Source of the DNA: Candidatus Aenigmatarchaeota archaeon
Lineage (GTDB): Archaea; Aenigmatarchaeota; Aenigmatarchaeia; QMZP01; JAFGSV01
Length of the DNA: 64,000 nucleotides
Assembly: GCA_021163005.1 (NCBI GenBank)
Contig: JAGGXP010000020.1
Location: forward strand, 164-64,163
Reading direction: 5' to 3'
Below, in pieces: positions 15,916 to 40,399 of the stretch. The notes beneath the pieces are model-generated. The model made no database searches and had not been told where the DNA came from. It worked only from the letters and a program-made list of their open reading frames with translations. A program made the translations under genes and the position numbers. Every line of letters begins with the position of its first letter. Position 1 is the first letter of the stretch.

Positions 15916-15918
15916 AAC

Positions 15919-16368: not shown

Positions 16369-16402
16369 TTCTTCCCCATTTACTTATTGAACAAAGTTCC
16401 TT

Positions 16403-16855: not shown

Positions 16856-16889
16856 GTTATAAACTTTGGCATTTCTGCTTAAATATCGC

Positions 16890-17753: not shown

Positions 17754-18686
17754 CTACACACCCGGATAAGTTATATGAATGAAAGCCAGAAAGCCTATAT
17801 TCATCAGCGGCAGCACGAGCCATGTCATTATTGTGACTATCTCTGACGTGCTGAATCCCATCACATCGCCGCCTATTATGCTCATGGTGGCGAGTGTTGA
17901 AAGAAGGAACAGGGGGGCAGCGACAAGCAAGGCCGTGTATATATCCGCGTATGTGGACAGCGTCTTCAGGTATTTCTCCCTCTTTATCCTGTAGTCGAAA
18001 AGCGCCTTGTCCGACATCTCCTTCAGGTATGCCGAAAGGTTGCCTCCGGTCTCTATTGTGGAGCTTATGCCGAGAAGCACCTCCCTCAGCTCTTTTGAAG
18101 GTGTCTGTGACGCGACTGTCTTCATGGCGGCCACGCTCGATGTCCCGAAGGTCTTTATGTTCTTTACAACCATCTGGGCCTCCTTTGAAATCTCTCCGTA
18201 TTCCTTGAAGCCTGCTATCAGGCTGAACATGAACTCAGGCGGTATGCCTGAAGATGCAGTGGCGGCCATGTGGGTTATGGCGAAGGGGAGGTTGTTGTTT
18301 ATGGATGTAGCCCGGCTCTTGGCCTTCTGGATGGGATATACATAAAATATGAGGAAAGTAAATGACGCGCCAAGTATGGGTATGAAAACCAGCATGATTA
18401 TATACAAAAGCGGGAAGAATTCTACGAAGAATCCGAGTGCTATTACACCTGCAAGCGTCACTATATATGACAGTGCCGTGGTGAAGAATATGACGCTCAC
18501 CCATGTCTTCAGAAGCATGTTTATCCTCGCGCCCCTGAGATGCTGCTTAAGGGGCTCGAAGTTTTCTATGTATTTTTCAACAAGCCATCCAAAAGACACC
18601 TTAGCCAGTTTTTCATATAACGGTAGCATGCCCTTCCTTTGATTATTGGGCTTTTTTATTATTAAGCTTGGTCTGGGACAAACCAT
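17754..18686 (-). CDS. FlaJ/TadB-like polytopic membrane platform protein (N-terminal half)
   Basis: T2SS-F-like. The start is possibly the internal Met at about 18629. Confidence 0.6.
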   Translation of the reverse strand: MVCPRPSLIIKKPNNQRKGMLPLYEKLAKVSFGWLVEKYIENFEPLKQHLRGARINMLLKTWVSVIFFTTALSYIVTLAGVIALGFFVEFFPLLYIIMLVFIPILGASFTFLIFYVYPIQKAKSRATSINNNLPFAITHMAATASSGIPPEFMFSLIAGFKEYGEISKEAQMVVKNIKTFGTSSVAAMKTVASQTPSKELREVLLGISSTIETGGNLSAYLKEMSDKALFDYRIKREKYLKTLSTYADIYTALLVAAPLFLLSTLATMSIIGGDVMGFSTSEIVTIMTWLVLPLMNIGFLAFIHITYPGV

Positions 18687-20752: not shown

Positions 20753-20766
20753 TATTTTTCGATACC

Positions 20767-23445: not shown

Positions 23446-23475
23446 CTTTTATTTGCAGTCCTCCAATATAGTATA

Positions 23476-24741
23476 TTGATAATTATGGGTTACATACAGA
23501 CTGGTTACAGGCCGGACAAGAACGACCTTGTCTGCGAGTTCTATATCGAGCCCGCAAAGGGCTCCACTGTAAAGAAAGCGGCGGAGCACGTGGCTTCCGA
23601 ATCCAGCACAGGCACATGGACTGACGTCGCCACAATGAAGCCGCGTATCAGGAATCTCGGCGCGAAGGTATTTGAGATAAAAGGCAAATGGGTGAAGATT
23701 GCCTATCCGTCCGAGCTGTTCGAGGGCGGCAACATGCCCCAGATATACAGCTCCATAGCCGGCAACATATTCGGAATGAAGATTGTCAGAAACCTAAGGC
23801 TCGAGTCGATGCACTGGCCGAAGAGCATAATGAAATCGTTCAGGGGTCCGATGTTCGGCATACCCGGTGTCAGGAAGCTGCTCAAGGTAAAGAACAGGCC
23901 CCTGCTGGGGACAATAGTAAAGCCGAAACTCGGCCTCAACGAGAAAGAGCATGCAAAGGTCGCTTATGATGCATGGAGAGGAGGGCTCGACATAGTCAAA
24001 GACGACGAGAACCTCTCCAGCATGAAGTTCAACCACTTTGAGAAAAGGGTAAAAGAGACATTAAAGATGAGAGACAGGGCAGAAAGGGAGACCGGAGAGA
24101 GAAAAATGTACATGCCCAACGTGACAGCCGAAAGCCGGGAAATGCTCAGAAGGGCCAGGTTCATCAGGGACAACGGCGGGGAATACATGATGGTTGACAT
24201 AGTCACAGCCGGATGGTCAGGACTTCAGACGCTGAGGGAAGAGAACCAGGACCTGAAGCTTGTCATGCATGCGCACAGGGCCGAACATGCCGCATTCACC
24301 AGGAACCCAAAACACGGCATCTCCATGCTGGTCCTGGCTGAGAGCGCGAGGCTGATAGGTGTGGACCAGATACACATAGGGACTGTTGTCGGGAAGATGG
24401 AAGGGAAAAAAGAGGACGTAATGGACACAGAGGATGAAATCGAGCATCGCATCATAAGGGAACACGGGCACGTGCTTGCCGATGACTGGGGAAGCATCAG
24501 GCCTGTTTTCGCTGTGTGCTCAGGCGGGCTCCATCCCGGACACCTGCCAAAGCTCGTTGCGATACTCGGCACCGACATCATAGCGCAGTTCGGCGGCGGC
24601 TGCCACGGTCATCCCGGAGGAACGGTTAAAGGCGCTGCAGCCATTAGGCAGGCCGCGGAGGCTGTCATGGAGGGCATTGATTTAAAGGAGGCTGGAAAAA
24701 GTAATTATGAACTCAGGGAAGCCTTGAAGAAGTGGTCATGA
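23476..24741 (+). CDS. rbcL: ribulose-1,5-bisphosphate carboxylase large subunit, form III
   Basis: GGLDIVKDDENL, KPKLGL and HAHRA motifs. 421 aa. Confidence 0.85.
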   Translation: MIIMGYIQTGYRPDKNDLVCEFYIEPAKGSTVKKAAEHVASESSTGTWTDVATMKPRIRNLGAKVFEIKGKWVKIAYPSELFEGGNMPQIYSSIAGNIFGMKIVRNLRLESMHWPKSIMKSFRGPMFGIPGVRKLLKVKNRPLLGTIVKPKLGLNEKEHAKVAYDAWRGGLDIVKDDENLSSMKFNHFEKRVKETLKMRDRAERETGERKMYMPNVTAESREMLRRARFIRDNGGEYMMVDIVTAGWSGLQTLREENQDLKLVMHAHRAEHAAFTRNPKHGISMLVLAESARLIGVDQIHIGTVVGKMEGKKEDVMDTEDEIEHRIIREHGHVLADDWGSIRPVFAVCSGGLHPGHLPKLVAILGTDIIAQFGGGCHGHPGGTVKGAAAIRQAAEAVMEGIDLKEAGKSNYELREALKKWS

Positions 24742-26282
24742 TGAAGCTTAAAGTGAAGATCCTTGGTCTTGAGGCCGAGAAGCCGGTCGTTGTAATCAAC
24801 AAATCCGATGCCGAAGAAATAGACGTGAGGCCGCTTGACAGGGTTGACATGACAACAGGCAGGAGAAAGGGGACAGCCATTGTCAATGTTGCCACGCATT
24901 TCATAAGGCCGGGTGAGATAGGGCTTTACAGCGAGATAGCTGACCACATGAAAGCCGCCAACAATGAAACCATCGATGTACTGCCTTCGAACCCGCCGTC
25001 ATCACTCATACACATAAGGGAGAAGCTTGCCGGAAAGCCGCTTGATGAGAAGGGGATGAGAAAAATCGTTGAGGATGCTGTAGCGAGGAAGCTTTCCGAC
25101 ATCGAGATGACGGCGTTCGTCACAGCCCTGTATAATCACGGCATGACGACAACGGAGGTTGCCGCTTTGTCAAAGTCCATGGCGTTCACGGGGAAGACGC
25201 TCGACCTCGGTAAAAAGGAAATATTCGACAAGCATTCAATAGGCGGCGTTCCTGGGGACAAGACATCGATGATGCTCGTTCCCATAATAGGGGCGGCAGG
25301 CCTTACAATACCGAAGACATCCAGCAGGGCCATAACGTCTCCAGCAGGAACAGCCGACAGATTTGAATGTCTTGCGCCTGTTGATCTCAAGCTTGAGGAG
25401 ATAAAGGCTGTGGTTAAAAAAGTGAATGCCTGCCTCGTCTGGGGAGGGGCAGTTGACCTTGCGCCTGCAGATGACCTTTTCATAAAAATAGAGTACCCGT
25501 TGTCGATAGACCCGCTTCTTCTGCCTTCTGTGATGTCGAAGAAGAAGGCGGTAGGCGCGAAGTATCTCGTCATAGACATACCGACCGGAGAAGGCACGAA
25601 AATCAAGAGCACCAAGGAGGCTGAGGTGCTTGCTGAAAAATTCATAGCCCTTGGAAAAAGCCTGGGTATAAAGACTGTCGGTGCCTCTACTTTCGGAGAA
25701 CAGCCAATAGGGCATGCAATAGGACCGGCTCTCGAGGCGCGGGAGGCTCTCTCGACGCTCATGGACGGCAAAGGCCCGGCAGATGTCGTGGACAAGGTAA
25801 CCAACGTTGCCGGCATGCTTCTTGACTTTAAGCTAAGGAAAGGAGGCAAGCAGGAGGCATTGAGGATTCTCAAGACAGGGAAGGCCTACAAAAAGCTCAG
25901 GGAAATAATAGAGGCGCAGGGCGGAAATCCTGACATAAAGCCGGATGACCTCGCTCTTGGCGCAAAGCGCATCGAACTGAAATCATCAGTCAGCGGTGTC
26001 GTTTCATGGATAGACAACAGAGCGATAGTCGAGGTGGCGAGGGCGGCGGGCACGCCGAAGGACAGGGGCTCCGGCATATACATACACAAAAAGATGGGTG
26101 ACAGCGTAAAGAAGGGTGACACGCTTCTAGAGATATACGCCGAGAAGGAATACAAACTTGAGAGGGCGCTGAAAATAACAAAGGAAGTCAGGGTAATGGG
26201 AATCGGCAAGAAGGTTGATATGCTTCTGGAAAAGATACCAAGGATGGTTGAGCATCCGAAATACTTCATACTGGAAAGGTAA
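24741..26282 (+). CDS. AMP phosphorylase (thymidine phosphorylase family)
   Basis: MKLKVKILGLEAEKPVVVIN N-terminus and SIGGVPGDKTSM. ATGA overlap with the rbcL stop. Confidence 0.8.
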   Translation: MKLKVKILGLEAEKPVVVINKSDAEEIDVRPLDRVDMTTGRRKGTAIVNVATHFIRPGEIGLYSEIADHMKAANNETIDVLPSNPPSSLIHIREKLAGKPLDEKGMRKIVEDAVARKLSDIEMTAFVTALYNHGMTTTEVAALSKSMAFTGKTLDLGKKEIFDKHSIGGVPGDKTSMMLVPIIGAAGLTIPKTSSRAITSPAGTADRFECLAPVDLKLEEIKAVVKKVNACLVWGGAVDLAPADDLFIKIEYPLSIDPLLLPSVMSKKKAVGAKYLVIDIPTGEGTKIKSTKEAEVLAEKFIALGKSLGIKTVGASTFGEQPIGHAIGPALEAREALSTLMDGKGPADVVDKVTNVAGMLLDFKLRKGGKQEALRILKTGKAYKKLREIIEAQGGNPDIKPDDLALGAKRIELKSSVSGVVSWIDNRAIVEVARAAGTPKDRGSGIYIHKKMGDSVKKGDTLLEIYAEKEYKLERALKITKEVRVMGIGKKVDMLLEKIPRMVEHPKYFILER

Positions 26283-30056: not shown

Positions 30057-30848
30057 TCATGGCTGGTTAATTGTTGTAATTGTTATCGGCTTCATGACTG
30101 CCTTCCCATTATCATAGACGGGGAATTTCTGCTTTGTCACTGCTGTGACATTCACCACGCATCCATTTTCGCTGCTGATTATTGCGGTTTCAACTGTGCA
30201 GCAGAAGGTTTCATGCTTCTGGTTTATCTCACCGGGATTGCACGCCTCCAGCTTTGTTCTGGCAGATTCGGCAGCATCCTTCAACTGCCTGTAAAGCTCA
30301 ATGAAGGGGGCATTGACCGTTATGTTTATCAGCGAGCTTCTCTGTATTGTGATGTCCTGAGTTTGGGATATGCGCTTGACTGTGACAGGCGAATCTCCAT
30401 GTGCAACTATCCTCAGCGAGCCTCCGTTAGGGTAAATCCTCACATTCCTGTAAAACGGGATTTCAGCAGGGAACACGAATGTCCCTGTATATTCCTTTGT
30501 GTATTTTTCCATATTTTTGGTTGTCGCGTCCGCAAGGGCCTGAATAAGGACGGCCTCGCCGGTCGCGCTGTCTGCGCTTCCGTCAGACCATAGAGCATTT
30601 CCTCCAGGTATCTCTCCTGACTTTCCCAAGTCGTACATGGCCTGGTAAAGCGACAGCTTCGCAGACTCTTCGAGATAGAGCTTTGCAAGCAATGCAGAGT
30701 CGTCCATTATGTAAACTATGTTGTTTATGCGTATTTCGGTGCTGCTCTTCTGCCAGTTAGAAGCGGATTTCAGGATGAATACTCCAATGACTATGAAAAT
30801 GAGTATAAGGAACGACATGTAAATGATGTTTGCATAAGCCTTCCGCAT
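30057..30848 (-). CDS. secreted/membrane-anchored hypothetical protein (first gene... last in operon)
   Basis: N-terminal TM anchor. The start overlaps the upstream stop. Confidence 0.5.
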   Translation of the reverse strand: MRKAYANIIYMSFLILIFIVIGVFILKSASNWQKSSTEIRINNIVYIMDDSALLAKLYLEESAKLSLYQAMYDLGKSGEIPGGNALWSDGSADSATGEAVLIQALADATTKNMEKYTKEYTGTFVFPAEIPFYRNVRIYPNGGSLRIVAHGDSPVTVKRISQTQDITIQRSSLINITVNAPFIELYRQLKDAAESARTKLEACNPGEINQKHETFCCTVETAIISSENGCVVNVTAVTKQKFPVYDNGKAVMKPITITTINQP

Positions 30849-31822
30849 CAGTCAGTCACCCCCTCATTGAGGTTCCTTATGTCCTGCATGGCTGCATTCA
30901 TGCTTGACTCGCTCGGTATCATCCACTCGAAGTGCATGGCATCCTTCACTGAGTTGAAGTCGCATCCCCAGCGGAAATGATGATTCCTGAAGGCGTCTAC
31001 GACGCATTTCGGGATGTCTGTTATGCAGGTGTTCCTGCCGTTGCATTTGGGATCCTTCGGGCAGTTCGGGTTGTTGCCGGGATTGATGTCTATTGCCAGA
31101 CCGTAGGAATGCATGCTCATCACCTCTGGGTTGTTGGTATTGGGTCTGCAGCTGTATGTGCCTGCATCCCCGGCACCTGCACTTTCGTTCCAGAAGTCGT
31201 ATTTCTTTGTTTCCTCGTCCGTGCATTTCTTTATGTCTTTAACAACTTCCTCGAAGTCATCTGCTGCCAGCTTGTTGACGTACACATCCCTGCCCATGAA
31301 GTTGATGCTGACAAGGTGGTTCCTTATGTATTGGTCATCTCCCTCGGCTCTGCAGTCACCGAACAGCTTGCTCCTCTGCGAAAACGACGAGAAGTCTGTA
31401 GATATGCGGGGAATCGCGAAGGCCGCCTTTCCTGTCCTGCCCCCCGGAAGCGGTATGTCGACATACACCAGCTCCCCTGTCTCGGTGTTGCCATACTTTT
31501 TTACTTCCTTCATGGTTTCATCGTAAAGCCGTATGCCCGTGTCCATGGATGCGGCAAGTTCTTCTATGCCGCTGTCGCTGCAGCCCAGTCCTTCAATGAT
31601 GCATGAGATTATCTCGAGGTTGCTGAACGGTTCCGTCTTTGCCTTCAGCAGCGGCCCGATTTTTCCTGTGCCGTCGTTGATTGAAACAGATATGTCTGCA
31701 TGGGCCTTCAACTGCACAGCCTTTGACAGGAACGGAATGGTGTGAATAATCATCACCACTGCCAGCACTGCCAGAGACACTAATATCAGCCCCGCAAATC
31801 CTATTGAAGCCTTCTTCATCAT
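30848..31822 (-). CDS. membrane-anchored LAS/M15-family peptidase (D-Ala-D-Ala carboxypeptidase/L-Ala-D-Glu endopeptidase-like)
   Basis: N-terminal TM helix. SMHSYGLAIDIN (SxHxxGxAxD) and FRWGCDF..DAMHFEW motifs match the M15/VanY-type zinc peptidase signatures. Confidence 0.6.
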   Translation of the reverse strand: MMKKASIGFAGLILVSLAVLAVVMIIHTIPFLSKAVQLKAHADISVSINDGTGKIGPLLKAKTEPFSNLEIISCIIEGLGCSDSGIEELAASMDTGIRLYDETMKEVKKYGNTETGELVYVDIPLPGGRTGKAAFAIPRISTDFSSFSQRSKLFGDCRAEGDDQYIRNHLVSINFMGRDVYVNKLAADDFEEVVKDIKKCTDEETKKYDFWNESAGAGDAGTYSCRPNTNNPEVMSMHSYGLAIDINPGNNPNCPKDPKCNGRNTCITDIPKCVVDAFRNHHFRWGCDFNSVKDAMHFEWMIPSESSMNAAMQDIRNLNEGVTD

Positions 31823-31826
31823 GACA

Positions 31827-33278
31827 TCACCCTGAAAGAGCCTTCCTCAGCTCGCCATACCTCAGCATGACCATCTCCACGTAATTGTCGTGCTCCCTCT
31901 TTACATTATCATTGTCTGTGTCCGGGCATCCCCAGCCCACGTATCCCCTGACAGCCGCCTTCCAGCCGCTGTATTGGAGCGTTCTGAAGCATCCCTCTGC
32001 CGAATGCCCATTCTTGTAGGTGTCGTATTTTTCACTGAGCAGCTTTATGCCCTCCCTGATATTCGTTTCAGGGTCATCATAACCTCTGACGTCTTTTGAT
32101 ATCTGCATCAGCCCGCAGTATCCGTAGTCATTGCATAGGCTGCCCTGGGAAGGCTCTTGGGTGCATGATGATTCCTGCATCATTATTGACAGGGGAAGCA
32201 GCGGGTCTGGTATGCCGTATTCCTTGGAATACTCCACAATCCACGAGGCGTAATCACTGCACGAGGTGCCGCAGGAGCATCTCCTGTTTATTATGAGGCC
32301 GATCGTGTTGGCATGGTGTATCGCACTGAGAACATCCGCAGGCGTCCTGTCTGCTGGCGTGACCTCAATGCCTGCCGCGTCGCTCCATTCACTTCCGCTG
32401 CCGGAACCGCCAAAGCCTCCCCCTCCGTAATCAAAGCCGCTTGTGTATTCGGCACGTCTTTCCATGTCGATGTCCAGCTTCAGAGGGACGGCGAAATCAC
32501 CGGCGAAGCGTATGCATACCTTCTTCCCGCGGGTGCTGTCACACTCCCAGCTGCCGCTGAAAGTCTCGGTGACTATCCTTTTCAATCCTGAGTTCGGCAG
32601 TATTTCCTTTGCGCTTATCCCTGCCTCGGGCTCAATCCAGGCAAGGATGTCATCCTCGCCGTTGAAGACAGGCGTGACTATCTGTTTCTTTATGTCGTCT
32701 GCGCCCATGAGCTGATTCTGAAGCACAGAGAGGCTGCTGCAGGCAACTGGTCTGTAGTTTCCATTCACGGCAGCGGTGTCACTGCATGTGTAGCTGCTGT
32801 AGATGTCGACAGCCATGTTGTGCTCATCGAGCCTGTAGGCATGGATGACGTAATCCCTTCCACTTTCGAGTATGGTCTGCTTCTTGTCGAGCACGGGCAT
32901 TATCGGTGATTTCATCGTCAGGTAGACAGTATGTTCAACTCTTCCCTTTTTCCCGTCAAAAACCCATGTTCCTCCCGAAGGTATGGTACTTAGCTTCATG
33001 AAATTGTCGGATAGCCCGAGCGACTGCGGACCCTCCGTGGACATGGAACTCATCTTAAGGTATTCCGTCTCAGTGCCGGTGCCTGCGAATGCCGCCAGCC
33101 TGCCTGCGGCGAGGTTTGCATATTCCATCGACCGTAGCTCGTCGCTTGATGTCGCTGTGTTAATGGAGAAGGCTATAAGCGGGGCAACTACCAGTGTGAG
33201 CAGCAGCAGCAGTATGGCTATGAATATGATTGTGCCGGCGGAGAATTCTATGTCTATGTCCATCTGCCCTTTCAGCAT
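31827..33278 (-). CDS. membrane-anchored protein with C-terminal SLT lytic transglycosylase domain
   Basis: MMQESSCTQEPSQGSLCNDYGYCGLMQIS contains the catalytic E-S..GLMQ motif of family 1 SLT/GH23. N-terminal hydrophobic anchor and a Gly-rich linker GGGGFGGSGSGS. Confidence 0.65.
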   Translation of the reverse strand: MLKGQMDIDIEFSAGTIIFIAILLLLLTLVVAPLIAFSINTATSSDELRSMEYANLAAGRLAAFAGTGTETEYLKMSSMSTEGPQSLGLSDNFMKLSTIPSGGTWVFDGKKGRVEHTVYLTMKSPIMPVLDKKQTILESGRDYVIHAYRLDEHNMAVDIYSSYTCSDTAAVNGNYRPVACSSLSVLQNQLMGADDIKKQIVTPVFNGEDDILAWIEPEAGISAKEILPNSGLKRIVTETFSGSWECDSTRGKKVCIRFAGDFAVPLKLDIDMERRAEYTSGFDYGGGGFGGSGSGSEWSDAAGIEVTPADRTPADVLSAIHHANTIGLIINRRCSCGTSCSDYASWIVEYSKEYGIPDPLLPLSIMMQESSCTQEPSQGSLCNDYGYCGLMQISKDVRGYDDPETNIREGIKLLSEKYDTYKNGHSAEGCFRTLQYSGWKAAVRGYVGWGCPDTDNDNVKREHDNYVEMVMLRYGELRKALSG

Positions 33279-33706
33279 GCGTCCACCTCGGCATAAGGCA
33301 TTTCAGGCCTCTTGGTTATGCAGATAGATTGTGGTTTTGTTATGGTCTTTTCAAAGCCCCCGCTGGCGGGAAGCGTGTTTATCCTGCTCGGGCTCTTCGA
33401 GGTCTTGCCGGATATTTTGTATTCGTTTATAACATACCACCCGGCCCTCTCAATCTCATAGCCGTCCTTTTTTCCCTTCTCCTCATAGGATATGCTCAGA
33501 GATTCTACGGAGTCCAGAGCCACCGGTATGCGCACAGAGCCCGCCTCTAAAGACGAAAGCGTGTCTATGTACAGCGCCACTGTGTCGCCGAGGCTGAAGG
33601 GATTGTCTTCGCTTAACGGGCCCACAACCCTCGTTGCTATGATGAAGAAGAAAAGCGATATGATTATTGCGAATGCCACGACAACAGCCAGCCTGGATGC
33701 CTCCAT
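33272..33706 (-). CDS. small membrane-anchored hypothetical protein
   Basis: N-terminal TM. ATGA coupling with the upstream gene. Confidence 0.45.
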   Translation of the reverse strand: MEASRLAVVVAFAIIISLFFFIIATRVVGPLSEDNPFSLGDTVALYIDTLSSLEAGSVRIPVALDSVESLSISYEEKGKKDGYEIERAGWYVINEYKISGKTSKSPSRINTLPASGGFEKTITKPQSICITKRPEMPYAEVDAC

Positions 33707-34318
33707 TCAACCACCACTGCCCGTGCTTTCAGAATAAACTATGCGGCAGGTCTTGCCTTCTGGGGACGCTTTTACGTAAAGCGGATACGTGCGGCTGAAG
33801 GTTTCTCCGCCGTTTCCCGGGATGCACTCCCAGCTTCCCGTCACCACGTTCCTTTCGCAGGTCTCAATGCCCGGCTGGAGCCCTGTGAAATCGCATTTCA
33901 TTGTGAAGACCGCCGGCTCCGAGTCCCTGAGATACCTGATATCCCTATGTGCCCATGCCTCCTTGATTTTGTCTAATTTCCTCGGCAGTGCTATTATGAA
34001 CGTGCCTGCTCTGCTGTCATCGCAGGCATTTATGCAGGCGCTCGTCTTTTCCGTGCCGTATTGGTTGCATGTGAGCTTGCAGACATTGGAATCACCAGTG
34101 AAGACGATTTTGTAGACACACTGCGAATCAAGCTCCAGGTTCGCCTGAGCACGTATCCTCCCTTCAAGTGGGGCAAGCCCTTTGAGCACCTTGGACCAGC
34201 AGGGATTCGATGTCAGGAGGGACGCCTTGAAAGCGAAAACTACAATCAGAAACAGCACGAACATTATGCCAAGCACTGTTGTCATGGTTTTTACAACAGG
34301 CGCGAGTCCCTTTTGCAT
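33707..34318 (-). CDS. Cys-rich secreted protein with pilin-like N-terminus
   Basis: N-terminus MQKGLAPVV..VLGIMFVLFLIVVFAF has a KG-hydrophobic signature. About 12 Cys. Confidence 0.5.
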   Translation of the reverse strand: MQKGLAPVVKTMTTVLGIMFVLFLIVVFAFKASLLTSNPCWSKVLKGLAPLEGRIRAQANLELDSQCVYKIVFTGDSNVCKLTCNQYGTEKTSACINACDDSRAGTFIIALPRKLDKIKEAWAHRDIRYLRDSEPAVFTMKCDFTGLQPGIETCERNVVTGSWECIPGNGGETFSRTYPLYVKASPEGKTCRIVYSESTGSGG

Positions 34319-34510: not shown

Positions 34511-35158
34511 TCAGGCGCTGTACCTGCGTATCGTCATCGTGTACTGCGGCACGTTCTGCACCCACGGCCGGCAGTAGCCGCCCTCCCAGCAGTAGCAGTG
34601 GGTCGTCCTGCCGGTATCCGGCACGCATCCTATCTCCGCTATGGTGTCCTGACCGTACTGGTCCACATAGCTTGTCCTTATCAGTTTGTAGAACGCTTCT
34701 ATGCCCTCCTGCGGGGTTTCGTATTTTGCCCACTTCCCGCAGCTCTCCTGCCCCTCCTTCGCCATAATGCAGAAGAAGTTGTTGCAGTCCTCTGTTATGC
34801 CCTCGCATGTGGCCTTTCCGAGTGATGTCTCCTGCTGCGAGACTGCCACGGCAAAAGCAGGGTCTATGTCGTAACTGACGCCGTATTTGTAGAAGGCGTG
34901 GCCCTTGTATTTCAGCTTGGGGCCGCCGTTATGCATCAGGTAGTCCACTATCTGCTTCTCCGTGACCTTCGGGTAGGATGCCGAGAATACAACGCTGCCA
35001 GACGATTCGCCGTAGCTTCCTTGGTAATCGCCACCGCTGCCTGCCGCTTTGTTCACTTCAGGAGCCTTCTTGGACAGCACGGCTGTCGCCACTATTATGG
35101 CTATGACAATCGTAAAAAAGATGAAAATAGACTTTGACAGCTCAATCTGTCCCTTCAT
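34511..35158 (-). CDS. class III signal peptide (prepilin-like) protein with putative murein hydrolase-like domain
   Basis: N-terminus MKGQIELSKSIFIFFTIVIAIIVA. The FAVAVSQQETSLGK segment weakly recalls the catalytic Glu region of GH73/SLT-type hydrolases. That domain call is low confidence. Confidence 0.5.
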   Translation of the reverse strand: MKGQIELSKSIFIFFTIVIAIIVATAVLSKKAPEVNKAAGSGGDYQGSYGESSGSVVFSASYPKVTEKQIVDYLMHNGGPKLKYKGHAFYKYGVSYDIDPAFAVAVSQQETSLGKATCEGITEDCNNFFCIMAKEGQESCGKWAKYETPQEGIEAFYKLIRTSYVDQYGQDTIAEIGCVPDTGRTTHCYCWEGGYCRPWVQNVPQYTMTIRRYSA

Positions 35159-35217: not shown

Positions 35218-35544
35218 TCACTTCTTTACTAAGCTGCATGTACAGGGTGGATAATCCTTCATTATTTCGGAACATTTATTTGAAATTGCATTTGTATTAT
35301 CGGTATTGTCTACCTTGACTGAAAACTGAGACCAGTCTGCTCCCGGAGAACCCGGGTTCAGCTGGCAGTATGTAGCGCACTTCTGCTGGCAGAGGTTTAC
35401 TTTCATCGTGTCTGTGGACCAGATGCCGAGAACGCCCATTATGTTGCCCATCTGCGTCCCGAAGATTGTCATTATGACCAGTGCTGTCACAAGAAGAACT
35501 ATGGCTATTATGACAATGGTCAGTGTGAGCGACAATCCTTTCAT
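35218..35544 (-). CDS. small pilin-like protein with class III signal peptide
   Basis: N-terminus MKGLSLTLTIVIIAIVLLVTALVIM. 108 aa with several Cys. Confidence 0.6.
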   Translation of the reverse strand: MKGLSLTLTIVIIAIVLLVTALVIMTIFGTQMGNIMGVLGIWSTDTMKVNLCQQKCATYCQLNPGSPGADWSQFSVKVDNTDNTNAISNKCSEIMKDYPPCTCSLVKK

Positions 35545-35773
35545 AGTTTATTTATGTCAAAGGGCACTTAAAAATATATTTCCCGTGAGCGTGTCCGGTC
35601 CTTCCGATAATCCACCGTCAGTTGCCGCCTATAAGCACGTCCCTCAGCGGCTTTAGTCCTGATGAGAACCATTGCATGCTGTTGGAGTTCCATGTGAGCA
35701 TTATGCTGGCTATCAAGAGTGTGGCCACGAAAAGCATCACCAGCACAATCACAGTCCTCAGCGTGAATTCCAT

Positions 35774-38263
35774 TCAACCGCCCCCTGCGTTGGGCCATTT
35801 GGTAGATAGTTCAGCACCTACTTGTAATGCACCACCGGTTGCACCAGTTGCTGCCACCAGTGCAATAGCAGTTCCGCCTGACAAAAAGCCCGCGGCTATC
35901 GTGCCTCCCACCGTCACTGCCTGCCCTGCTATATTCAGGGCTATGCTTCCTCCGGTAGGCTGTGCATAGCAGTAGTTGTCTTCCTCAACGCTTCTTTTGT
36001 CGAAATCCGTTACAATGACAGCATCAGGCATCCTGCAGTCTGTCATTGTGTATGTCTCGAATTCAATCCCTGTTCCGGTGTCCATGAATTCCAGCAGTTG
36101 GTGTATTGTGTTTCCAAACTCGGGGTTGATGATACCGCTGCTTATCCCTATCTTGTCGGGATAATAGTCTCCGTTGTTTTCAGTAAGCTCTACCCAGTAG
36201 CCGGCATGTGTACTCATTCCACTGTCAGCAGGGGAACCAAGAGCACTTATACTCCAGTTGTCGCCGTATCTGAAATTAGTGTAAACTGTATTTTTAGTCC
36301 CCATCATATCAGAATAGGTGAATGCTCTGTCATTCATATCTTCTATCATCTTGCAGATTGTGTCACTCTCTCTTTCACTCTTTTCACACCTTTCATAAAC
36401 TCCTGCATACCCAAGGCACCCGGCTCCCGGCATGAATGCGAAGTTCCTGGTTCCATCAATGTTTTTTGGGTTGTAGCTTTCAAGGTATTTTTCTCCGTCA
36501 GCAGTTATTATGCATTTTTTGTCGAAATCGTCAAATCTCAGGAATATTTTGGCATCTTTATATGTGGCCTCTGCCTCCAGATAAGCGCTCGTGTCTGTGT
36601 CGCTCTTCACGATGGGAACTTTCGTTACTCCCGAACCTGTGTCAAAAATGAGATAAGCGTCTTCCAGTGTGTGCCCAGGCCGTGTGTCGAACACCGCGTA
36701 GACGCCGTCAGAGAGCAGAACAGTGGCCCTGTTGTTCCCCACCTGCATGAACTCCGGAAGCTTACCGTCCGCGAAATCAAGGACCTCCCTGACTATCGGG
36801 TCCCTGGCAGGGTCGGCCCTGAAGCTTCCGCCGTTTGTCCTCAGGTATGTGTCCGGCTCAGTACATAACGGGTATTTGTCATTTTTAACAACGGGCTCAT
36901 TGCAGGTTATATCGCCATCTTCATTTGCATAGTATCCGCAAATCACTTCATCGCTCCTCTTCACTTTCATGCTGCTTAGGTAGCATGGAGATGCAAGAAC
37001 GAGTGTTGGTGTGGATTTTCTGAACAGGTGTCTTTTGTACCTGATTATGACCGGCACATCCTTTTCCATATTGAACTGTTCGGGCTCCTCATCCCCTGCC
37101 CGCTTAAACAGTATTGAGTTTTTGTGAGAAGTCAGCTTGCCAATCCAGCTGTCAAGCACATCAGCGGCAGAAAGGGTTGCTATAGCGCCAAGGCCAGTAA
37201 CCACTTTTCCTCCCTGCCTAAAGGCAGCCCCAGGCTTCCCAACGGCTGCCAGCAGCTTGTCCTTCATGTCTTTTTTAATTGCTTCTGCTATTTGTCTTCG
37301 TCCATTAACCTCGGCATCTTTTATGAAGTTCCTTGCTATGTATTTGTCAACAGTAGCAGATCTTTTAATCGCATTCTTTATTCCTCCCATTGCAATTTTC
37401 TCAGCCTCGCTCACTGCGGCCTTTCCGGTAATTGCTCCTATCTTTCCTATTGGAATTGCGGAAGCAGCTATTATAAGTCCGTACATCCACCATGAATCAT
37501 GGAACGTCCACGTATCCTCGCTCATGGGGAACTTCTGCCAGTATACGAGGTACTTCGGGTCGCCGTAGTAGGGTATCCAGTCCTCCGCTTCGGTAATTGT
37601 CTGTGGCAGGTTGAAGTTGTTAACAGTGCATTCCGTGCCGCCGGGAGTTTCCTCACAGGTAACATATGGCTTCATCGGAACGAGCCTCGTGCATTCACAA
37701 TCATCACGGACTGACCTGTCCGGTACAAGTAAGGGATTTCTCTTATGGTATCTCCCGCTGTATGCGATGCAGCCGGGGATTTCGCCGCATACCTTTTCGT
37801 AGTTGTTCGGATCCGTGCATTGTTCCTCGCACTCTTTGTCCGTCTTGATACCTGATTTCCTGTGTATGTAAACTTCCTCCATGAAATAGTCATTCACCAT
37901 CTGCTCCGGTGTGAGCTGGTTTATGTCTGTCGGGAGTGTTGCCTGCGACCCGTAGTAATCCTTGCAGGCAGTTTCCCCCACGCTTCCATAATACTGACTG
38001 CCCTGGGTCACGGAGTTCACTGCGCACACGAGTGCCTCCGTGGACATCTTGGCTGCTTTATAATCGTCTGACGCCGGGGTGTTGATATCTTTGCAGGCAG
38101 GTGAATCAGGCGTCACCTTGCATATGATGCTGCGCATGTTCTCATTGTCATTCACAGAAACGAAAGTCGCGAACATAGCGCCCGCTCCCACTATGAAGAT
38201 GAGCACAAGAATTATCCTCAGTGTCTGGCCCGCAGTAAACTCCATTATGCCCTTTGAAGCCAT
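35774..38263 (-). CDS. large Cys-rich secreted protein with prepilin-like N-terminus and C-terminal Gly/Ala-rich hydrophobic segment (putative filament tip/adhesin)
   Basis: N-terminus ..MASKGIMEFTAGQTLRIILVLIFIVGAGAM. More than 40 Cys. The ORF track starts at 38284; the start is uncertain. Confidence 0.55.
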   Translation of the reverse strand: MASKGIMEFTAGQTLRIILVLIFIVGAGAMFATFVSVNDNENMRSIICKVTPDSPACKDINTPASDDYKAAKMSTEALVCAVNSVTQGSQYYGSVGETACKDYYGSQATLPTDINQLTPEQMVNDYFMEEVYIHRKSGIKTDKECEEQCTDPNNYEKVCGEIPGCIAYSGRYHKRNPLLVPDRSVRDDCECTRLVPMKPYVTCEETPGGTECTVNNFNLPQTITEAEDWIPYYGDPKYLVYWQKFPMSEDTWTFHDSWWMYGLIIAASAIPIGKIGAITGKAAVSEAEKIAMGGIKNAIKRSATVDKYIARNFIKDAEVNGRRQIAEAIKKDMKDKLLAAVGKPGAAFRQGGKVVTGLGAIATLSAADVLDSWIGKLTSHKNSILFKRAGDEEPEQFNMEKDVPVIIRYKRHLFRKSTPTLVLASPCYLSSMKVKRSDEVICGYYANEDGDITCNEPVVKNDKYPLCTEPDTYLRTNGGSFRADPARDPIVREVLDFADGKLPEFMQVGNNRATVLLSDGVYAVFDTRPGHTLEDAYLIFDTGSGVTKVPIVKSDTDTSAYLEAEATYKDAKIFLRFDDFDKKCIITADGEKYLESYNPKNIDGTRNFAFMPGAGCLGYAGVYERCEKSERESDTICKMIEDMNDRAFTYSDMMGTKNTVYTNFRYGDNWSISALGSPADSGMSTHAGYWVELTENNGDYYPDKIGISSGIINPEFGNTIHQLLEFMDTGTGIEFETYTMTDCRMPDAVIVTDFDKRSVEEDNYCYAQPTGGSIALNIAGQAVTVGGTIAAGFLSGGTAIALVAATGATGGALQVGAELSTKWPNAGGG

Positions 38264-38296: not shown

Positions 38297-40399
38297 TCAA
38301 GCGCCGAGAGTCTTCATGGCGCCCTCTATCATGCCGCCGAAAGCCATGCTCGAGCCTATGGCCACGAGCACGTATATAATCATGGAAACCATGAGCATCT
38401 TTCCCGCAAGGTTCCACTGCATGGCCCTGTCGTCTCCGCGGTTGACCTTCGTGACGAACATGGCTATTATGATTATGACTTCTATCAGGTAGAATCCCAC
38501 TATTATCTGGAACATGGTGGACGATATGGAGGTGGAGGAGCCGAGAAGCTTGCCGGCGTCTATGGTGAAAGTTTCCTGGAATCCCATGTCATTCAGCCGG
38601 CCGCCGAGGAAGACCAGCACCTGTATTATGACCTGCGACATCGCGACGATGAGCCCCGTCACAAGGGGTGCCATTGCGTATGCCTGGAACTGCATGCTGC
38701 TCGTGGTCTCTGACAGCAGTCCCCTCATGTATTCCTGCGTCTCCCTGACGTTCTTGAGGTACCTCGACACCGTCAGCATGGACTGCGAAGCGAACTGCAC
38801 GCCCTTCTTTGCTGTATCCGTTATGGTGCGCATGACATTCTGTATCAGCCTGCTCGGATAGAACCTGAGGGCTCCGCTCTGCGGGTCCATAAGCGCCCGC
38901 TCGAATGTCATGTTGAAGTTCCGCATGTTTCTGAGGATTATCCCGAACATGCGCGATATCTCGAGGTCCTTTACATCCTCGTTTGCCTTTTCAATGGCGA
39001 TTTCCAGGGGCGTCCCGCCGGATATGCGGTTGCCCAGCTGGAACAGCGCCAACTCGAACTCCGATTCCATTTTGTATACAGAGTCCTCGACGCGCAGGCG
39101 CTGGTAGTTGGACATGATGAAGAATATGGAAAGGCCAACTGCTGTTCCCAGGATGGGCAGTATTGACATGAGCAGCGAGAAGAACGGGTCCGGGTCTTCG
39201 ATGCGCTCGTTAGAGATGACACCGTTCTCAACCTTCTGCGGAACTATCAGGTATTCGGGATGCTCTATGAAATACAGTATGCCGGGAAGGGCTATCAGCA
39301 GGCCGATTATCAGTGCTATTGGAAGAACCGGAAGGACTATTCTGCTGTTGCCCGTCTTCAGCATGAACGTTCCCTTCGGTGGCAGGTTCGGGTGCTTCGA
39401 AACGTCAACCTTCGAGAATGTCACCGGCCTCTTGCTCAGTATGTTGTTTATAAACCATATGAGCAGAAGCGGCAGGACTATGTTGTAGCCCACTATGAAA
39501 TGTATGGGGCTGACACTGTCAGCCATGAAGATAGCAGCCATCGGCGCCATTACAGACCCGAGTATCGGCAGCACTATGCCCATCATGTGTATTACAGTGA
39601 CAGGCATCTGGAGTTCCTGGGCATAGTGCTTCATCCTGTCCCTTGTGCCGTCAAGAACGACCCTCAGTGCTTCATCAAGCGTCTTTTCTGCCTTCTCCGG
39701 CACCTGCTTCTGGGACTCCATTATCAGCCGCAGGGCCTCTGAAAACTCCTCGTTCTCCGGCTTCCATTTATTGATATAGTCCATCATGGCCTCGTTGGCA
39801 GAGTAGTAGCGGCCCATCTGTATGTCCCACAGGAGTTTCCTTATGTCCCATGCGAGAACCCCTGATATGTTCGACGATGTGAACTTCAGAGCCCCTTCCA
39901 CATTTGGAGATATGCGCATGCTCACGACCATGTAGAGTATGGCCAGAACCACCTGCGAGCTTGCCTGTATTCTCATGGACTTCATGAGGCTCTTCGGATA
40001 GTTCATGAGGTAGTATCCGACTCCGAGGCCCAGCGCAGCTGCGAGCGCTATGCCGAAGACGTTCTTGAGCACACCAAAAGCAAACAGGAAGCCTGAAGCA
40101 AACGAAAAGAAGATGACAGAAAGCAGGAAAAGGGCAACAGGCGCGTTGGGTTTTATTCTCAGTCCCGTGAAGTCTATGGCTGCCTTGAGTTCCATGCTCG
40201 TCTTTTCGTCAAAGCTTATGTCCATCAGGCTTCCGGCGAACCTCGCGAGTACCTCATACCATGTCAGCTTTACATCTGTCCTTTTCCTGAATATCCTGTA
40301 GTCGCGCGATGTGACGTCTATGGTATGCTGCGAAGGAGAAACACCCGGAGCTGCGTAACGGGCACTCCTATGTTTGTTTTTATTGCCGAAGAGTCCCAT
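38297..40399 (-). CDS. FlaJ/TadC-like polytopic membrane platform protein (enlarged, 700 aa)
   Basis: Two T2SS-F-like TM bundles with large cytoplasmic domains. Confidence 0.7.
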   Translation of the reverse strand: MGLFGNKNKHRSARYAAPGVSPSQHTIDVTSRDYRIFRKRTDVKLTWYEVLARFAGSLMDISFDEKTSMELKAAIDFTGLRIKPNAPVALFLLSVIFFSFASGFLFAFGVLKNVFGIALAAALGLGVGYYLMNYPKSLMKSMRIQASSQVVLAILYMVVSMRISPNVEGALKFTSSNISGVLAWDIRKLLWDIQMGRYYSANEAMMDYINKWKPENEEFSEALRLIMESQKQVPEKAEKTLDEALRVVLDGTRDRMKHYAQELQMPVTVIHMMGIVLPILGSVMAPMAAIFMADSVSPIHFIVGYNIVLPLLLIWFINNILSKRPVTFSKVDVSKHPNLPPKGTFMLKTGNSRIVLPVLPIALIIGLLIALPGILYFIEHPEYLIVPQKVENGVISNERIEDPDPFFSLLMSILPILGTAVGLSIFFIMSNYQRLRVEDSVYKMESEFELALFQLGNRISGGTPLEIAIEKANEDVKDLEISRMFGIILRNMRNFNMTFERALMDPQSGALRFYPSRLIQNVMRTITDTAKKGVQFASQSMLTVSRYLKNVRETQEYMRGLLSETTSSMQFQAYAMAPLVTGLIVAMSQVIIQVLVFLGGRLNDMGFQETFTIDAGKLLGSSTSISSTMFQIIVGFYLIEVIIIIAMFVTKVNRGDDRAMQWNLAGKMLMVSMIIYVLVAIGSSMAFGGMIEGAMKTLGA

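What the first reader, a model, noticed from the sequence alone, without database searches (positions are those of the whole stretch)
30848..33278. Adjacent SLT-domain and M15-peptidase-domain membrane-anchored proteins
The sequence shows MMQESSCTQEPSQGSLCNDYGYCGLMQIS (catalytic Glu-Ser and GLMQ) in the 483-aa protein. The 324-aa protein has SMHSYGLAIDINPG and FRWGCDFNSVKDAMHFEW. Both proteins have N-terminal hydrophobic anchors, so the domains would be exposed outside the cell. A glycan-strand cutter paired with a peptide-stem cutter is the classic complete murein-degrading combination seen in phage endolysins and predatory bacteria. The many cysteines and the GGGGFGGSGSGS linker suggest an extracellular, disulfide-stabilised modular enzyme.
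Basis: partly seen in the sequence, partly recalled or inferred. Interest (0 to 1): 0.75.

Follow-up and report, generated by a model that had tools for sequence, protein, structure and literature searches.

The report
Archaeal pilus operon carrying cell-wall cutters
A tiny DPANN-type archaeon, which has no bacterial-type cell wall of its own, encodes a glycan-cutting enzyme and a peptide-cutting enzyme for bacterial cell walls, each with a pilin-like front end inside a type IV pilus operon, which suggests a surface machine for attacking bacteria.

Summary
Two adjacent minus-strand genes, 31827-33278 (483 aa) and 30848-31822 (324 aa), encode an SLT/GH23 lytic-transglycosylase-like domain and an M15 (VanY/Ply500-like) zinc peptidase. 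Their catalytic residues are intact and conserved in relatives.

The interpretation needs revising on three points:
- **Host organism.** It is a DPANN archaeon, with Aenigmatarchaeota-like synteny. It is not a phage or a bacterium.
- **Gene context.** The two genes are the 9th and 10th genes of an 11-gene operon. A type-IV-filament ATPase and platform protein head it. Eight or nine proteins with one N-terminal hydrophobic helix follow, and seven of them have a prepilin-type [KR][GA] motif in front of it.
- **A third enzyme.** A lysozyme/GH73-like protein (215 aa) sits in the same operon.

In relatives the same operon slots and N-terminal modules carry M23, CHAP, NlpC/P60, Amidase_2, LysM or GDSL domains instead. 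M15 and SLT are fused in some proteins. A prepilin peptidase gene lies next to the cluster in seven related loci.

SLT proteins in DPANN are already published. I found no paper linking them to the pilus machinery or describing swappable wall-cutting heads.

My best reading is a filament or "bindosome"-like surface machine that displays peptidoglycan hydrolases against bacteria. Cleavage, assembly and target are inferred, not shown.

The parts
40441..42687 (-). Type-IV-filament (TFF) secretion ATPase, 748 aa, first gene of the operon
   Evidence: Pfam T2SSE, E=4e-14. NCBIfam FlaI 137.6 bits, TadA 121 bits and BasE 55 bits, all below the equivalog cut-offs. The Walker A region aligns (GGRGAGKTS). 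It is only 27% identical to the canonical TFF ATPase at 14227..15915. Orthologues stand upstream of SLT genes in L003, L004, L009, L016, L019 and L029.
38297..40399 (-). Polytopic platform protein (TadC/FlaJ-like), 700 aa
   Evidence: Weak Pfam T2SSF match, E=0.012. Many hydrophobic segments. Orthologues at E=1e-74 to 1e-91 sit next to the ATPase or upstream of SLT in eight related loci.
35774..38263 (-). 829-aa Cys-rich protein with a prepilin-like N-terminus (MASKG|IMEF..) and a Gly/Ala-rich hydrophobic C-terminus; function unknown (tip or adhesin candidate)
   Evidence: The JGI gene call is 829 aa. Motif and helix. No Pfam or NCBIfam hit. Homologues of 1013-1042 aa occupy the same slot in L003 and L032.
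35618..35773 (-). 51-aa hydrophobic mini-protein
   Evidence: Called by JGI. Translation. A 50-51-aa gene sits in the same slot in L003 and L032.
35218..35544 (-). 108-aa candidate major pilin (MKG|LSLTLTIVIIAIVLLVTALV)
   Evidence: Class III-like motif followed directly by the helix. The N-terminus is nearly identical in L032. Homologue in L003 at E=3e-35. No Pfam pilin model hit.
34511..35158 (-). 215-aa prepilin-like protein with a lysozyme/GH73-like domain (third putative peptidoglycan glycosidase)
   Evidence: Pfam Glucosaminidase, E=3.9e-6, 28 bits, below the cut-off of 30.2. Weak PDB matches to g-type lysozyme and a phage cell-wall hydrolase, with the catalytic-Glu position (QQET) aligned. 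Orthologues in L032 and L033 at E=7e-50 and 1e-67.
33707..34318 (-). 203-aa Cys-rich prepilin-like protein (MQKG|LAPV..), function unknown
   Evidence: Orthologues in L003, L032 and L033.
33272..33706 (-). 144-aa protein with an N-terminal helix and no [KR][GA] motif; overlaps the SLT gene by 7 nt
   Evidence: Orthologues in L003, L032 and L033.
31827..33278 (-). 483-aa prepilin-like SLT protein. Signal and helix at residues 1-44 (MLKG|QMDIDIEF..); lineage-specific N-module to about residue 283 (nt 32430-33278); Gly-rich linker at residues 285-296, within the 284-296 span computed as nt 32391-32429; SLT/GH23 domain at about residues 305-483 (nt 31830-32366)
   Evidence: The catalytic E369-S370 and G389-LMQ392 are invariant in A1. 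In L032 and L033 the N-module exists without an SLT domain, as 270-282-aa proteins.
30848..31822 (-). 324-aa prepilin-like M15 zinc peptidase. Signal and helix (MMKKA|SIGF..); N-module at residues 1-147 (nt 31382-31822); M15/LAS catalytic domain at about residues 150-305 (nt 30908-31375)
30057..30848 (-). 263-aa prepilin-like protein (MRKA|YANI..), last gene of the operon; overlaps the M15 gene by 1 nt
   Evidence: It equals the N-terminal 280 aa of a 504-aa GDSL/SGNH-hydrolase protein in L003: 31% identity, E=8e-33.

Best explanation
The two genes belong to an 11-gene operon (42687 to 30057, minus strand) of a DPANN archaeon.

**What the operon encodes**
- A dedicated type-IV-filament (TFF) machine: a secretion ATPase and a polytopic platform protein.
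- Behind them, eight to nine proteins whose N-termini follow the prepilin blueprint. That blueprint is a short basic leader, [KR][GA], then a hydrophobic helix of about 20 or more residues.
- Three of these proteins carry peptidoglycan-cleaving heads. The 483-aa protein has a GH23/SLT lytic-transglycosylase-like domain, which cuts the MurNAc-GlcNAc bond. The 324-aa protein has an M15/LAS zinc peptidase, which cuts the stem peptide or cross-link. The 215-aa protein has a lysozyme/GH73-like domain.

**Proposed mechanism**
1. A class III signal peptidase trims the leaders.
2. The ATPase and platform extract the helices from the membrane. They assemble the subunits into a short filament or a bindosome-like surface array. 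The 108-aa protein would be the bulk subunit, and the large-headed enzymes would be minor, tip or surface-tethered subunits.
3. The displayed enzymes locally dismantle the peptidoglycan of a bacterium that the archaeon touches. The purpose could be attachment, access to the cytoplasm, killing, or harvesting muropeptides.

**Shown:** gene order, domain identities, conserved catalytic residues, the N-terminal motif, and the modular swapping of heads.

**Inferred:** leader cleavage, filament incorporation, a bacterial target, and the physiological purpose.
For: **Domains and catalytic residues**
- M15_4 scores 61.8 bits.
- H238, D245, D294 and H297 are invariant in 11 homologues. They align to the Ply500 zinc-binding motifs.
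- The SLT-domain profile hits MltC, MltE and Slt70 at 4e-10 to 3e-6, with the catalytic Glu aligned. MMQES[SG]C and GLMQ are invariant in 20 DPANN domains.

**TFF context**
- T2SSE ATPase and T2SSF-like platform head the operon.
- Genes abut or overlap from 34318 down to 30057.

**Prepilin-like N-termini**
- Seven of the eight ORFs of 80 aa or more downstream of the platform have [KR][GA] just before the helix. So do the two canonical Pilin_N pilins elsewhere in the window. The three other ORFs with an N-terminal helix, one of them the operon's 144-aa protein, lack it.
- Of 111 full-length SLT-family members, 94 have an N-terminal helix. In 85 of those, [KR][GA] precedes it, with the consensus ..N[KR][KR]G|DIPITILVIG.

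**Conserved linkage**
- The SLT gene lies downstream of an orthologous ATPase and/or platform in eight further independent loci: L003, L004, L009, L016, L019, L029, L030, L031.
- A Peptidase_A24 prepilin peptidase gene lies within a few kb in L004, L009, L010, L019, L025, L030 and L031.
- Nearly every ORF between the platform and A24 in those loci starts with [KR][GA] plus a helix.

**Modularity pointing to peptidoglycan**
- The same operon slot and N-module carry M23 instead of M15 in L003.
- The N-module also occurs alone. Elsewhere it is fused to M23, to CHAP, to an NlpC/P60-like region in P0211 (recognised from sequence motifs only, no Pfam hit), or to NlpC/P60+M23+M14/M99-like.
- Amidase_2 sits next to SLT in L031, and LysM-SLT occurs in L016.
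- M15 and SLT are fused in L021 and P0139.

**Organism**
- It is archaeal: TFIIB, Pus10, RadA, Alba and form III RuBisCO are present.
- All 22 genome hits are DPANN.
Against: - No Pfam or NCBIfam pilin or class III model hits any of the operon proteins. The two canonical pilins in the same window do hit Pilin_N.
- No prepilin peptidase was found among the window ORFs scanned.
- In several operon proteins 5-10 polar or acidic residues lie between the putative cleavage site and the helix. This is atypical for many archaeal pilins.
- In the Aenigmatarchaeota genome CP070804.1 no ATPase gene was called upstream of the platform within the locus fetched.
- The 483-aa structure model is poor (pLDDT 47). 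Its fold search gave only suggestive MltF matches at E about 0.3.
- The single-sequence SLT score is below Pfam's cut-off.
- No bacterial partner, enzyme activity or expression data exist.
Confidence: 0.6

Rival explanations
1. The proteins are plain membrane-tethered ectoenzymes. The N-terminal helix is an uncleaved signal-anchor. The enzymes sit on the archaeal membrane and act on bacterial walls on contact. Co-location with the TFF genes reflects co-regulation only.
For: - Each protein has a single N-terminal helix.
- No pilin model hits.
- The N-module looks Cache/PAS-like, a fold typical of membrane-anchored extracytoplasmic domains.
- No A24 gene was found in the window.
Against: - A signal-anchor does not need a conserved [KR]G followed by a conserved +1 residue. 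Yet 85 of 94 family members with an N-terminal helix have that motif, and 66 of the 85 have Asp at +1.
- Linkage to the ATPase, the platform and A24 recurs in many diverged loci.
Confidence: 0.2
2. The TFF machine acts as a secretion device, like a bacterial type II secretion pseudopilus. Alternatively the heads are released by proteolysis. Either way the enzymes are soluble bacteriolysins used for killing competitors or scavenging muropeptides at a distance, rather than contact-dependent filament-borne tools.
For: - Archaeal secreted peptidoglycan hydrolases that kill bacteria are documented in PMC12352652.
- The Gly-rich linker between the N-module and the SLT domain could be a cleavage or flexibility site.
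Against: - The enzymes themselves carry the prepilin-like N-termini, rather than Sec or Tat signals.
- For an ultrasmall cell, diffusible enzymes give poor return. This point is an inference.
Confidence: 0.12
3. The enzymes remodel a cell wall of the archaeon itself, or the pseudomurein of a methanogen host. They would let the pilus pass through, as the specialised lytic transglycosylases of bacterial secretion systems do.
For: - The SLT profile also hits EtgA (a type III secretion-associated lytic transglycosylase) and a phage tape-measure domain.
- A close M15 relative sits in a bacterial T4SS-like locus.
Against: - The host is an archaeon, and no murein synthesis genes were seen in the 64 kb.
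- From established chemistry: pseudomurein has no MurNAc C6-OH for 1,6-anhydro formation and has only L-amino acids. It is therefore a poor substrate for lytic transglycosylases and M15/M23 enzymes.
- The breadth of heads (M15, M23, CHAP, NlpC/P60, Amidase_2, LysM) matches bacterial murein.
Confidence: 0.05
4. The pair is a prophage or viral endolysin cassette, or a recent transfer from a phage.
For: - The M15 domain is 32-33% identical to domains inside Rhizobium phage tape-measure proteins.
- It aligns with the Listeria phage endolysin Ply500.
Against: - There are no phage genes around the pair.
- The cluster is syntenic with Alba, enolase and iPGM in several diverged archaeal MAGs.
- The SLT domain has no phage match.
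- GC content is unremarkable across the locus.
Confidence: 0.02

Closest known systems
DPANN 'murein-like lytic transglycosylase' proteins (Castelle 2015 AR20; Castelle 2021 fam00969, PMC8204110; Vigneron 2022 GH23, PMC9723730)
   Same: - Same SLT/GH23 domain family. The giant 1,100-2,300-aa forms were recovered here in about a dozen loci with the same MMQES[SG]C/GLMQ domain.
- Same proposed target, bacterial murein.
   Different: - The published descriptions concern large extracellular proteins, or the mere presence of GH23.
- Here the protein is a 483-aa prepilin-like form inside a TFF operon. It is paired with M15 and lysozyme-like partners, and relatives carry swappable heads.
- None of the papers read mention pili, pilins or class III signals in this context.
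Sulfolobus bindosome (Bas system): functional proteins with class III signal peptides assembled by a dedicated TFF ATPase and platform
   Same: - Non-pilin functional domains sit behind a pilin-like N-terminus.
- A dedicated ATPase and platform pair serves them. The preprint 10.64898/2026.04.22.720090 describes this logic.
   Different: - The cargo there is sugar-binding proteins encoded elsewhere in the genome. Here the cargo is hydrolases encoded in the operon.
- The ATPase scores only 55 bits to BasE against a cut-off of 1000, so it is not a member.
Virion-associated and secretion-system-associated peptidoglycan hydrolases (phage tape-measure lysin domains; VirB1/EtgA/PrgK-type enzymes)
   Same: - Glycosidase and peptidase domains are mounted on a penetrating or extruding machine to breach murein locally.
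- M15 relatives occur in phage tape-measure proteins and in a bacterial T4SS-like locus.
- The SLT profile hits a tape-measure protein and EtgA.
   Different: - Those machines are tails or T3SS/T4SS, and they breach either the target wall (phage) or the producer's own wall.
- Here the carrier is an archaeal type IV filament system, and the producer has no murein.
Phage endolysins such as Ply500 (M15C L-Ala-D-Glu peptidase)
   Same: - Same catalytic fold and zinc-binding motifs: SxHxxGxAxD and DxxH.
   Different: - There is no cell-wall-binding domain of the endolysin type.
- There is no holin or lysis cassette.
- The protein has an N-terminal prepilin-like helix and an N-module, and it is chromosomal and archaeal.
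Type IV pili of episymbiotic Saccharibacteria (CPR)
   Same: - An ultrasmall, host-dependent cell uses type IV pili for contact with a bacterial host (PMC9894109 and PMC11623550, listed).
   Different: - The machine is bacterial.
- As far as I read, the pilins are not described as carrying peptidoglycan hydrolase domains.

Membership tests
SLT / GH23 family-1 lytic transglycosylase (PF01464) | Catalytic Glu in the E-S motif at the end of the first conserved helix | tested here: met
   E369-S370 is invariant in A1 and A3. It aligns to the catalytic Glu of MltC, and the E217Q mutant 4cfo has Q in that column.
SLT / GH23 family-1 lytic transglycosylase (PF01464) | GLMQ motif and AYNxG-type third motif | tested here: met
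   G389-L-M-Q392 is invariant. The third motif reads AA[VLI]RGYNGWG in relatives and AAVRGYVGWG in the window protein, so N is replaced by V there.
SLT / GH23 family-1 lytic transglycosylase (PF01464) | Score above Pfam's gathering threshold, or a significant profile match | tested here: inconclusive
   The single sequence scores 20.1 bits against a cut-off of 21.3. Relatives score 26.9-50.3 bits. The family profile hits MltC at 4e-10.
SLT / GH23 family-1 lytic transglycosylase (PF01464) | Lysozyme-like helical fold | tested here: inconclusive
   In the AF2 model only residues 305-483 are moderately confident. The top Foldseek hits are MltF, but at E about 0.3.
SLT / GH23 family-1 lytic transglycosylase (PF01464) | Produces 1,6-anhydroMurNAc (lytic transglycosylase rather than hydrolytic lysozyme) | not testable with these tools
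   This needs muropeptide analysis of digestion products.
Peptidase M15 (LAS zinc peptidases; PF13539 M15_4, VanY/Ply500-like) | Zinc ligands H-x6-D and a C-terminal H, with the D-x-x-H catalytic Asp | tested here: met
   SMH238SYGLAID245 and D294AMH297FE are invariant in 11 sequences. They align to the Ply500 motifs SNHNYGVAVD and DYPHFE.
Peptidase M15 (LAS zinc peptidases; PF13539 M15_4, VanY/Ply500-like) | Score above the curated threshold, and the LAS fold | tested here: met
Peptidase M15 (LAS zinc peptidases; PF13539 M15_4, VanY/Ply500-like) | Which peptide bond is cut (L-Ala-D-Glu, D-Ala-D-Ala or a cross-link) | not testable with these tools
   Sequence similarity spans enzymes with different specificities.
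Archaeal type IV pilin-like proteins (class III signal peptide substrates) | Short basic leader, [KR][GA] at -2/-1, then a hydrophobic helix of about 20 residues | tested here: met
   Seven of the eight ORFs of 80 aa or more downstream of the platform have it. So do all 11 M15-family members and 85 of 94 SLT-family members with an N-terminal helix.
Archaeal type IV pilin-like proteins (class III signal peptide substrates) | Match to curated pilin N-terminal models (PF07790 Pilin_N, PF04021 and similar) | tested here: not met
   No hit at E<=0.1 in Pfam or E<=1 in NCBIfam. The canonical pilins at 15919..16855 do hit Pilin_N.
Archaeal type IV pilin-like proteins (class III signal peptide substrates) | Encoded together with a TFF ATPase and platform protein | tested here: met
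   They share an operon in the window. The same holds in eight related loci.
Archaeal type IV pilin-like proteins (class III signal peptide substrates) | Class III signal peptidase (Peptidase_A24) available | tested here: inconclusive
   None was found among the window ORFs scanned. One is present within a few kb of the SLT gene in seven related loci.
Archaeal type IV pilin-like proteins (class III signal peptide substrates) | Pilin-type head fold; actual cleavage and filament assembly | tested here: inconclusive
Phage endolysin / lysis cassette | Phage genomic context (holin, structural genes) | tested here: not met
   The neighbours are TFF genes, Alba, enolase and iPGM. This synteny is conserved in archaeal MAGs.

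The most novel reading that the evidence does not exclude
This operon family may be a dedicated archaeal "cell-wall drill". That would be a type IV filament whose minor or tip subunits are interchangeable peptidoglycan hydrolases (SLT, GH73-like, M15, M23, CHAP, NlpC/P60, Amidase_2). Some DPANN archaea would use it to breach, and live on, bacterial rather than archaeal hosts. It would be a molecular basis for cross-domain archaeon-on-bacterium episymbiosis or predation.
Probability: 0.35. Interest if true: 0.85.

Novelty: new variant of a known kind. Interest (0 to 1): 0.66.

Why it matters
All cultivated DPANN archaea live on other archaea. Whether some live on or prey upon bacteria is an open question. 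So far it rests mainly on the bare presence of SLT genes (PMC8204110, PMC9723730, PMC10936187).

This locus turns that hint into a concrete, testable apparatus:
- a specific ATPase and platform pair;
- a candidate filament subunit;
- a modular set of wall-cutting subunits whose heads are all murein-specific.

It extends the "functionalised type IV filament" idea from binding proteins (the bindosome) to lytic enzymes. The 2025 survey of archaeal peptidoglycan hydrolases predicted signal peptides with SignalP 6 and reports only Sec and Tat classes. It found no signal in about two thirds of the proteins (PMC12352652). Prepilin-type leaders may account for part of that gap.

The enzymes are also candidate antibacterial lysins from an unexplored source.

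Tried and rejected
- **Direct PDB sequence search with the 483-aa protein.** It gave only a spurious Gly-linker hit. A profile of 20 domains was needed.
- **AF2 model of the 483-aa protein from 7 sequences.** Too poor (pLDDT 47) to say anything about the N-module (residues 45-283). Its fold search was only suggestive.
- **Pilin fold for the M15 N-module.** Looked for and not found. The nearest folds are Cache/PAS-like.
- **Prepilin peptidase in the window.** Searched with two A24 seeds and with Pfam on about 50 ORFs. None was found. Small or unscanned ORFs remain.
- **Phage origin.** Rejected for the locus as a whole.
- **Taxonomy of the nearest M15 catalytic-domain relatives.** Cluster names were almost all empty. 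Context shows at least one is bacterial and T4SS-associated, so the direction of transfer cannot be resolved.
- **The single \"Patescibacteria\" label (P0091).** Its contig carries a DPANN-like platform protein and an A24 gene. I treat the label as doubtful.
- **Literature.** Searches for any paper linking archaeal class III signals or TFF with peptidoglycan hydrolases returned nothing relevant. The library does not cover all subscription journals.

Full report
**1. Observation**

The coordinates 30848-33278 exactly span two adjacent minus-strand ORFs: 31827..33278 (483 aa) and 30848..31822 (324 aa). Each protein has one N-terminal hydrophobic segment, and they hold 12 and 10 cysteines.

Pfam gives Peptidase_M15_4 for the 324-aa protein (E=9.5e-17, 61.8 bits). 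For the 483-aa protein it gives a borderline SLT match (E=4.8e-4, 20.1 bits against a cut-off of 21.3).

**2. Are the enzymes real?**

*M15 protein*
- The direct PDB hit is the Listeria phage endolysin Ply500. SMHSYGLAID and DAMHFE align to its zinc-binding motifs.
- H238, D245, D294 and H297 are invariant in 11 full-length homologues.

*SLT protein*
- The single sequence finds nothing useful in PDB.
- A profile of 20 homologous domains, collected from genomes, hits MltC (4e-10), MltE (1.3e-6) and Slt70 (3e-6). The catalytic Glu column is aligned.
- The family signature is RxCxCGxxCxxYA, MMQES[SG]C, GLMQ, NIxxG, AAxRGYNGWGC, YVEEV.
- The whole-protein AF2 model is poor (pLDDT 47). Its fold search only hints at MltF.

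*Third enzyme*
- The 215-aa protein at 34511..35158 has a weak Glucosaminidase/lysozyme-like match with an aligned catalytic Glu.

**3. Context**

The window is archaeal: TFIIB, Pus10, RadA, RPA, Alba, ABCE1, SRP54, form III RuBisCO and AMP phosphorylase are present. An identical copy of the 483-aa protein occurs in JGI metagenome 3300016457.

The two genes are near the end of a tight minus-strand operon, 42687 to 30057. In order it encodes:
- a T2SSE-type ATPase (748 aa; best NCBIfam matches FlaI, TadA and BasE, all below their cut-offs);
- a polytopic T2SSF-like platform protein (700 aa);
- an 829-aa Cys-rich protein;
- a 51-aa mini-protein;
- a 108-aa pilin candidate;
- the 215-aa lysozyme-like protein;
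- 203-aa and 144-aa proteins;
- the SLT protein;
- the M15 protein;
- a 263-aa protein.

Alba, enolase and iPGM follow.

A second, canonical TFF locus lies at 14227-18686. It has an ATPase, two Pilin_N pilins and two platform genes. Its ATPase is only 27% identical to the 748-aa one.

**4. The N-termini**

Seven of the eight ORFs of 80 aa or more downstream of the platform start with a short basic leader. A [KR][GA] pair follows, then a long hydrophobic helix: MLKG|QMDIDIEF.., MMKKA|SIGF.., MKG|QIEL.., MKG|LSLTL.., MQKG|LAPV.., MASKG|IMEF.., MRKA|YANI... In the window only the two canonical pilins share this pattern. The three other ORFs with an N-terminal helix lack it.

The pattern holds in all 11 M15-family members. 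The SLT-domain family has 262 clusters at E<=1e-5. Every named one is DPANN except one doubtful "Patescibacteria" label. Of 111 full-length members, 94 have an N-terminal helix. In 85 of those, [KR][GA] precedes it, with the consensus ..N[KR][KR]G|DIPITILVIG. That degree of conservation is expected for a class III (prepilin) processing site. It is not expected for a generic anchor.

Three points count against this reading:
- No curated pilin model hits these proteins.
- No A24 peptidase was found in the window.

**5. Comparative genomics**

All 22 genome loci with this SLT signature are DPANN: Woese-, Pace- and Aenigmatarchaeota, and Undinarchaeales.

*Linkage to the TFF machine*
- In eight further independent loci the SLT gene lies downstream of an orthologous ATPase and/or platform: L003, L004, L009, L016, L019, L029, L030, L031.
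- In seven loci a Peptidase_A24 gene lies a few kb away.
- The ORFs in between almost all begin with [KR][GA] plus a helix.
- In about a dozen other loci the SLT domain ends giant 1,100-2,300-aa proteins, with no TFF genes detected in the fetched flanks. These are the published "large extracellular" forms (PMC8204110).

*Modularity*
- In L003 the M15 slot holds an M23 peptidase that shares the N-module: 33% identity over residues 27-128.
- The 263-aa protein equals the N-terminal part of an L003 GDSL/SGNH hydrolase.
- In L032 (Aenigmatarchaeota CP070804.1) and L033 the SLT-slot protein is the N-module alone, with no SLT domain.
- An exhaustive HMM search shows the M15 N-module also stands alone, as 147-188-aa proteins.
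- The same search shows it fused to M23, to CHAP, to an NlpC/P60-like region in P0211 (recognised from sequence motifs only, no Pfam hit), or to NlpC/P60+M23+M14/M99-like. All these proteins have prepilin-like N-termini.
- L031 has Amidase_2 next to SLT, and L016 has LysM-SLT.
- L021 and P0139 fuse M15 and SLT in one chain.
- Every swapped head except the GDSL domain is specific for murein. This argues strongly for bacterial peptidoglycan as the substrate.

**6. Origin**

The M15 domain's only phage matches are domains inside Rhizobium phage tape-measure proteins, at 32-33% identity. One close relative sits in a bacterial T4SS-like locus. The SLT domain has no phage match. Its profile weakly hits a tape-measure protein and EtgA.

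These are all envelope-breaching machines, so the functional analogy is good. The direction and date of any transfer cannot be resolved here. The locus itself is not a prophage, because its synteny with housekeeping genes is conserved.

**7. Mechanism**

I commit to the following, at about 0.6 for the TFF-dependent part:
1. A class III peptidase processes the leaders.
2. The dedicated ATPase and platform assemble or display the subunits. The 108-aa protein is the bulk subunit, and the large-headed enzymes are minor, tip or bindosome-like subunits.
3. The enzymes then breach bacterial murein locally. SLT and the lysozyme-like enzyme cut the glycan. M15 (or M23, CHAP, NlpC/P60 or Amidase_2 in relatives) cuts the peptide.

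The GDSL partner in L003 could remove O-acetyl groups that block lytic transglycosylases. That is speculation from the known biology of Ape1-type SGNH esterases.

Domain identity and a peptidoglycan target are well supported. Cleavage, assembly and the ecological role are inferred.

**8. Novelty**

SLT/GH23 genes in DPANN, and their interpretation as anti-bacterial, are published (PMC8204110, PMC9723730, PMC10936187). Archaeal peptidoglycan hydrolases that kill bacteria are also shown (PMC12352652).

Three sources do not link these enzymes to prepilin signals or TFF operons:
- the 2016 census of archaeal type IV pili;
- a 2026 preprint census of archaeal TFF systems;
- targeted literature searches.

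I therefore rate this a new variant of a known kind. The caveat is that the searchable library is incomplete.

Noticed in passing
window 14227-18686: A second, canonical archaeal type IV pilus locus. It has an ATPase (T2SSE+PilB3_C, + strand), two Pilin_N pilins (15919..16368 and 16403..16855) and two separate T2SSF platform genes (16890..17753 and 17754..18686). The genome therefore carries two distinct TFF systems within 30 kb.
   Followed up: partly
window 22618-26282: A nucleotide-salvage trio typical of DPANN. It comprises an IF-2B-family protein (likely ribose-1,5-bisphosphate isomerase), form III RuBisCO (23476..24741) and AMP/thymidine-phosphorylase-like protein (24732..26282). The same genes flank the cluster in L003 and L033.
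   Followed up: no
window 513-676 (- strand): Rfam reports a tRNA spanning 164 nt, just above threshold (30.4 bits). ARAGORN found no tRNA in the window. It is possibly an intron-containing archaeal tRNA.
   Followed up: no
L021 2-967 (Woesearchaeota RIFOXYA1_FULL_29_14) and protein P0139 (919 aa): The M15_4 and SLT domains are fused in a single polypeptide. This is a Rosetta-stone link between the two enzymes of the finding.
   Followed up: yes
protein P0200 (780 aa), P0236 (313 aa), P0211 (348 aa): The N-terminal module of the window's M15 protein is reused with other heads. P0200 has NlpC/P60+M23+M14/M99-like carboxypeptidase. P0236 has CHAP. P0211 has an NlpC/P60-like region seen by eye only, with no Pfam hit.
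   Followed up: partly
L032 9178-9990 (Aenigmatarchaeota CP070804.1) and L033 2146-2994: In these syntenic clusters the protein in the SLT slot is only 270-282 aa. It is the N-module without any SLT domain, so the SLT head was gained or lost within this lineage. In L032 no ATPase gene was called upstream of the platform gene.
   Followed up: partly
L016 9059-10594: A TFF-linked SLT protein with two LysM (peptidoglycan-binding) domains. Its signal looks Sec-like rather than prepilin-like, so different export routes exist within one family.
   Followed up: no
L035 (GCA_054042585.1): A close M15-domain relative (237 aa) lies inside a bacterial T4SS-like conjugation locus (PrgI, TraC-like, VirB4-like) next to dnaN. 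It is possibly from a Patescibacteria-type genome.
   Followed up: no
window 35774-38263: An 829-aa protein with 22 cysteines, no detectable domain, and a Gly/Ala-rich hydrophobic C-terminal tail. It is the largest prepilin-like protein of the operon, and 1013-1042-aa homologues occupy the same slot in relatives.
   Followed up: no
window 20749-21465 and 11226-12002: A RadC-like JAB protein lies directly after RadA. A KaiC-like ATPase lies near the canonical pilus locus.
   Followed up: no
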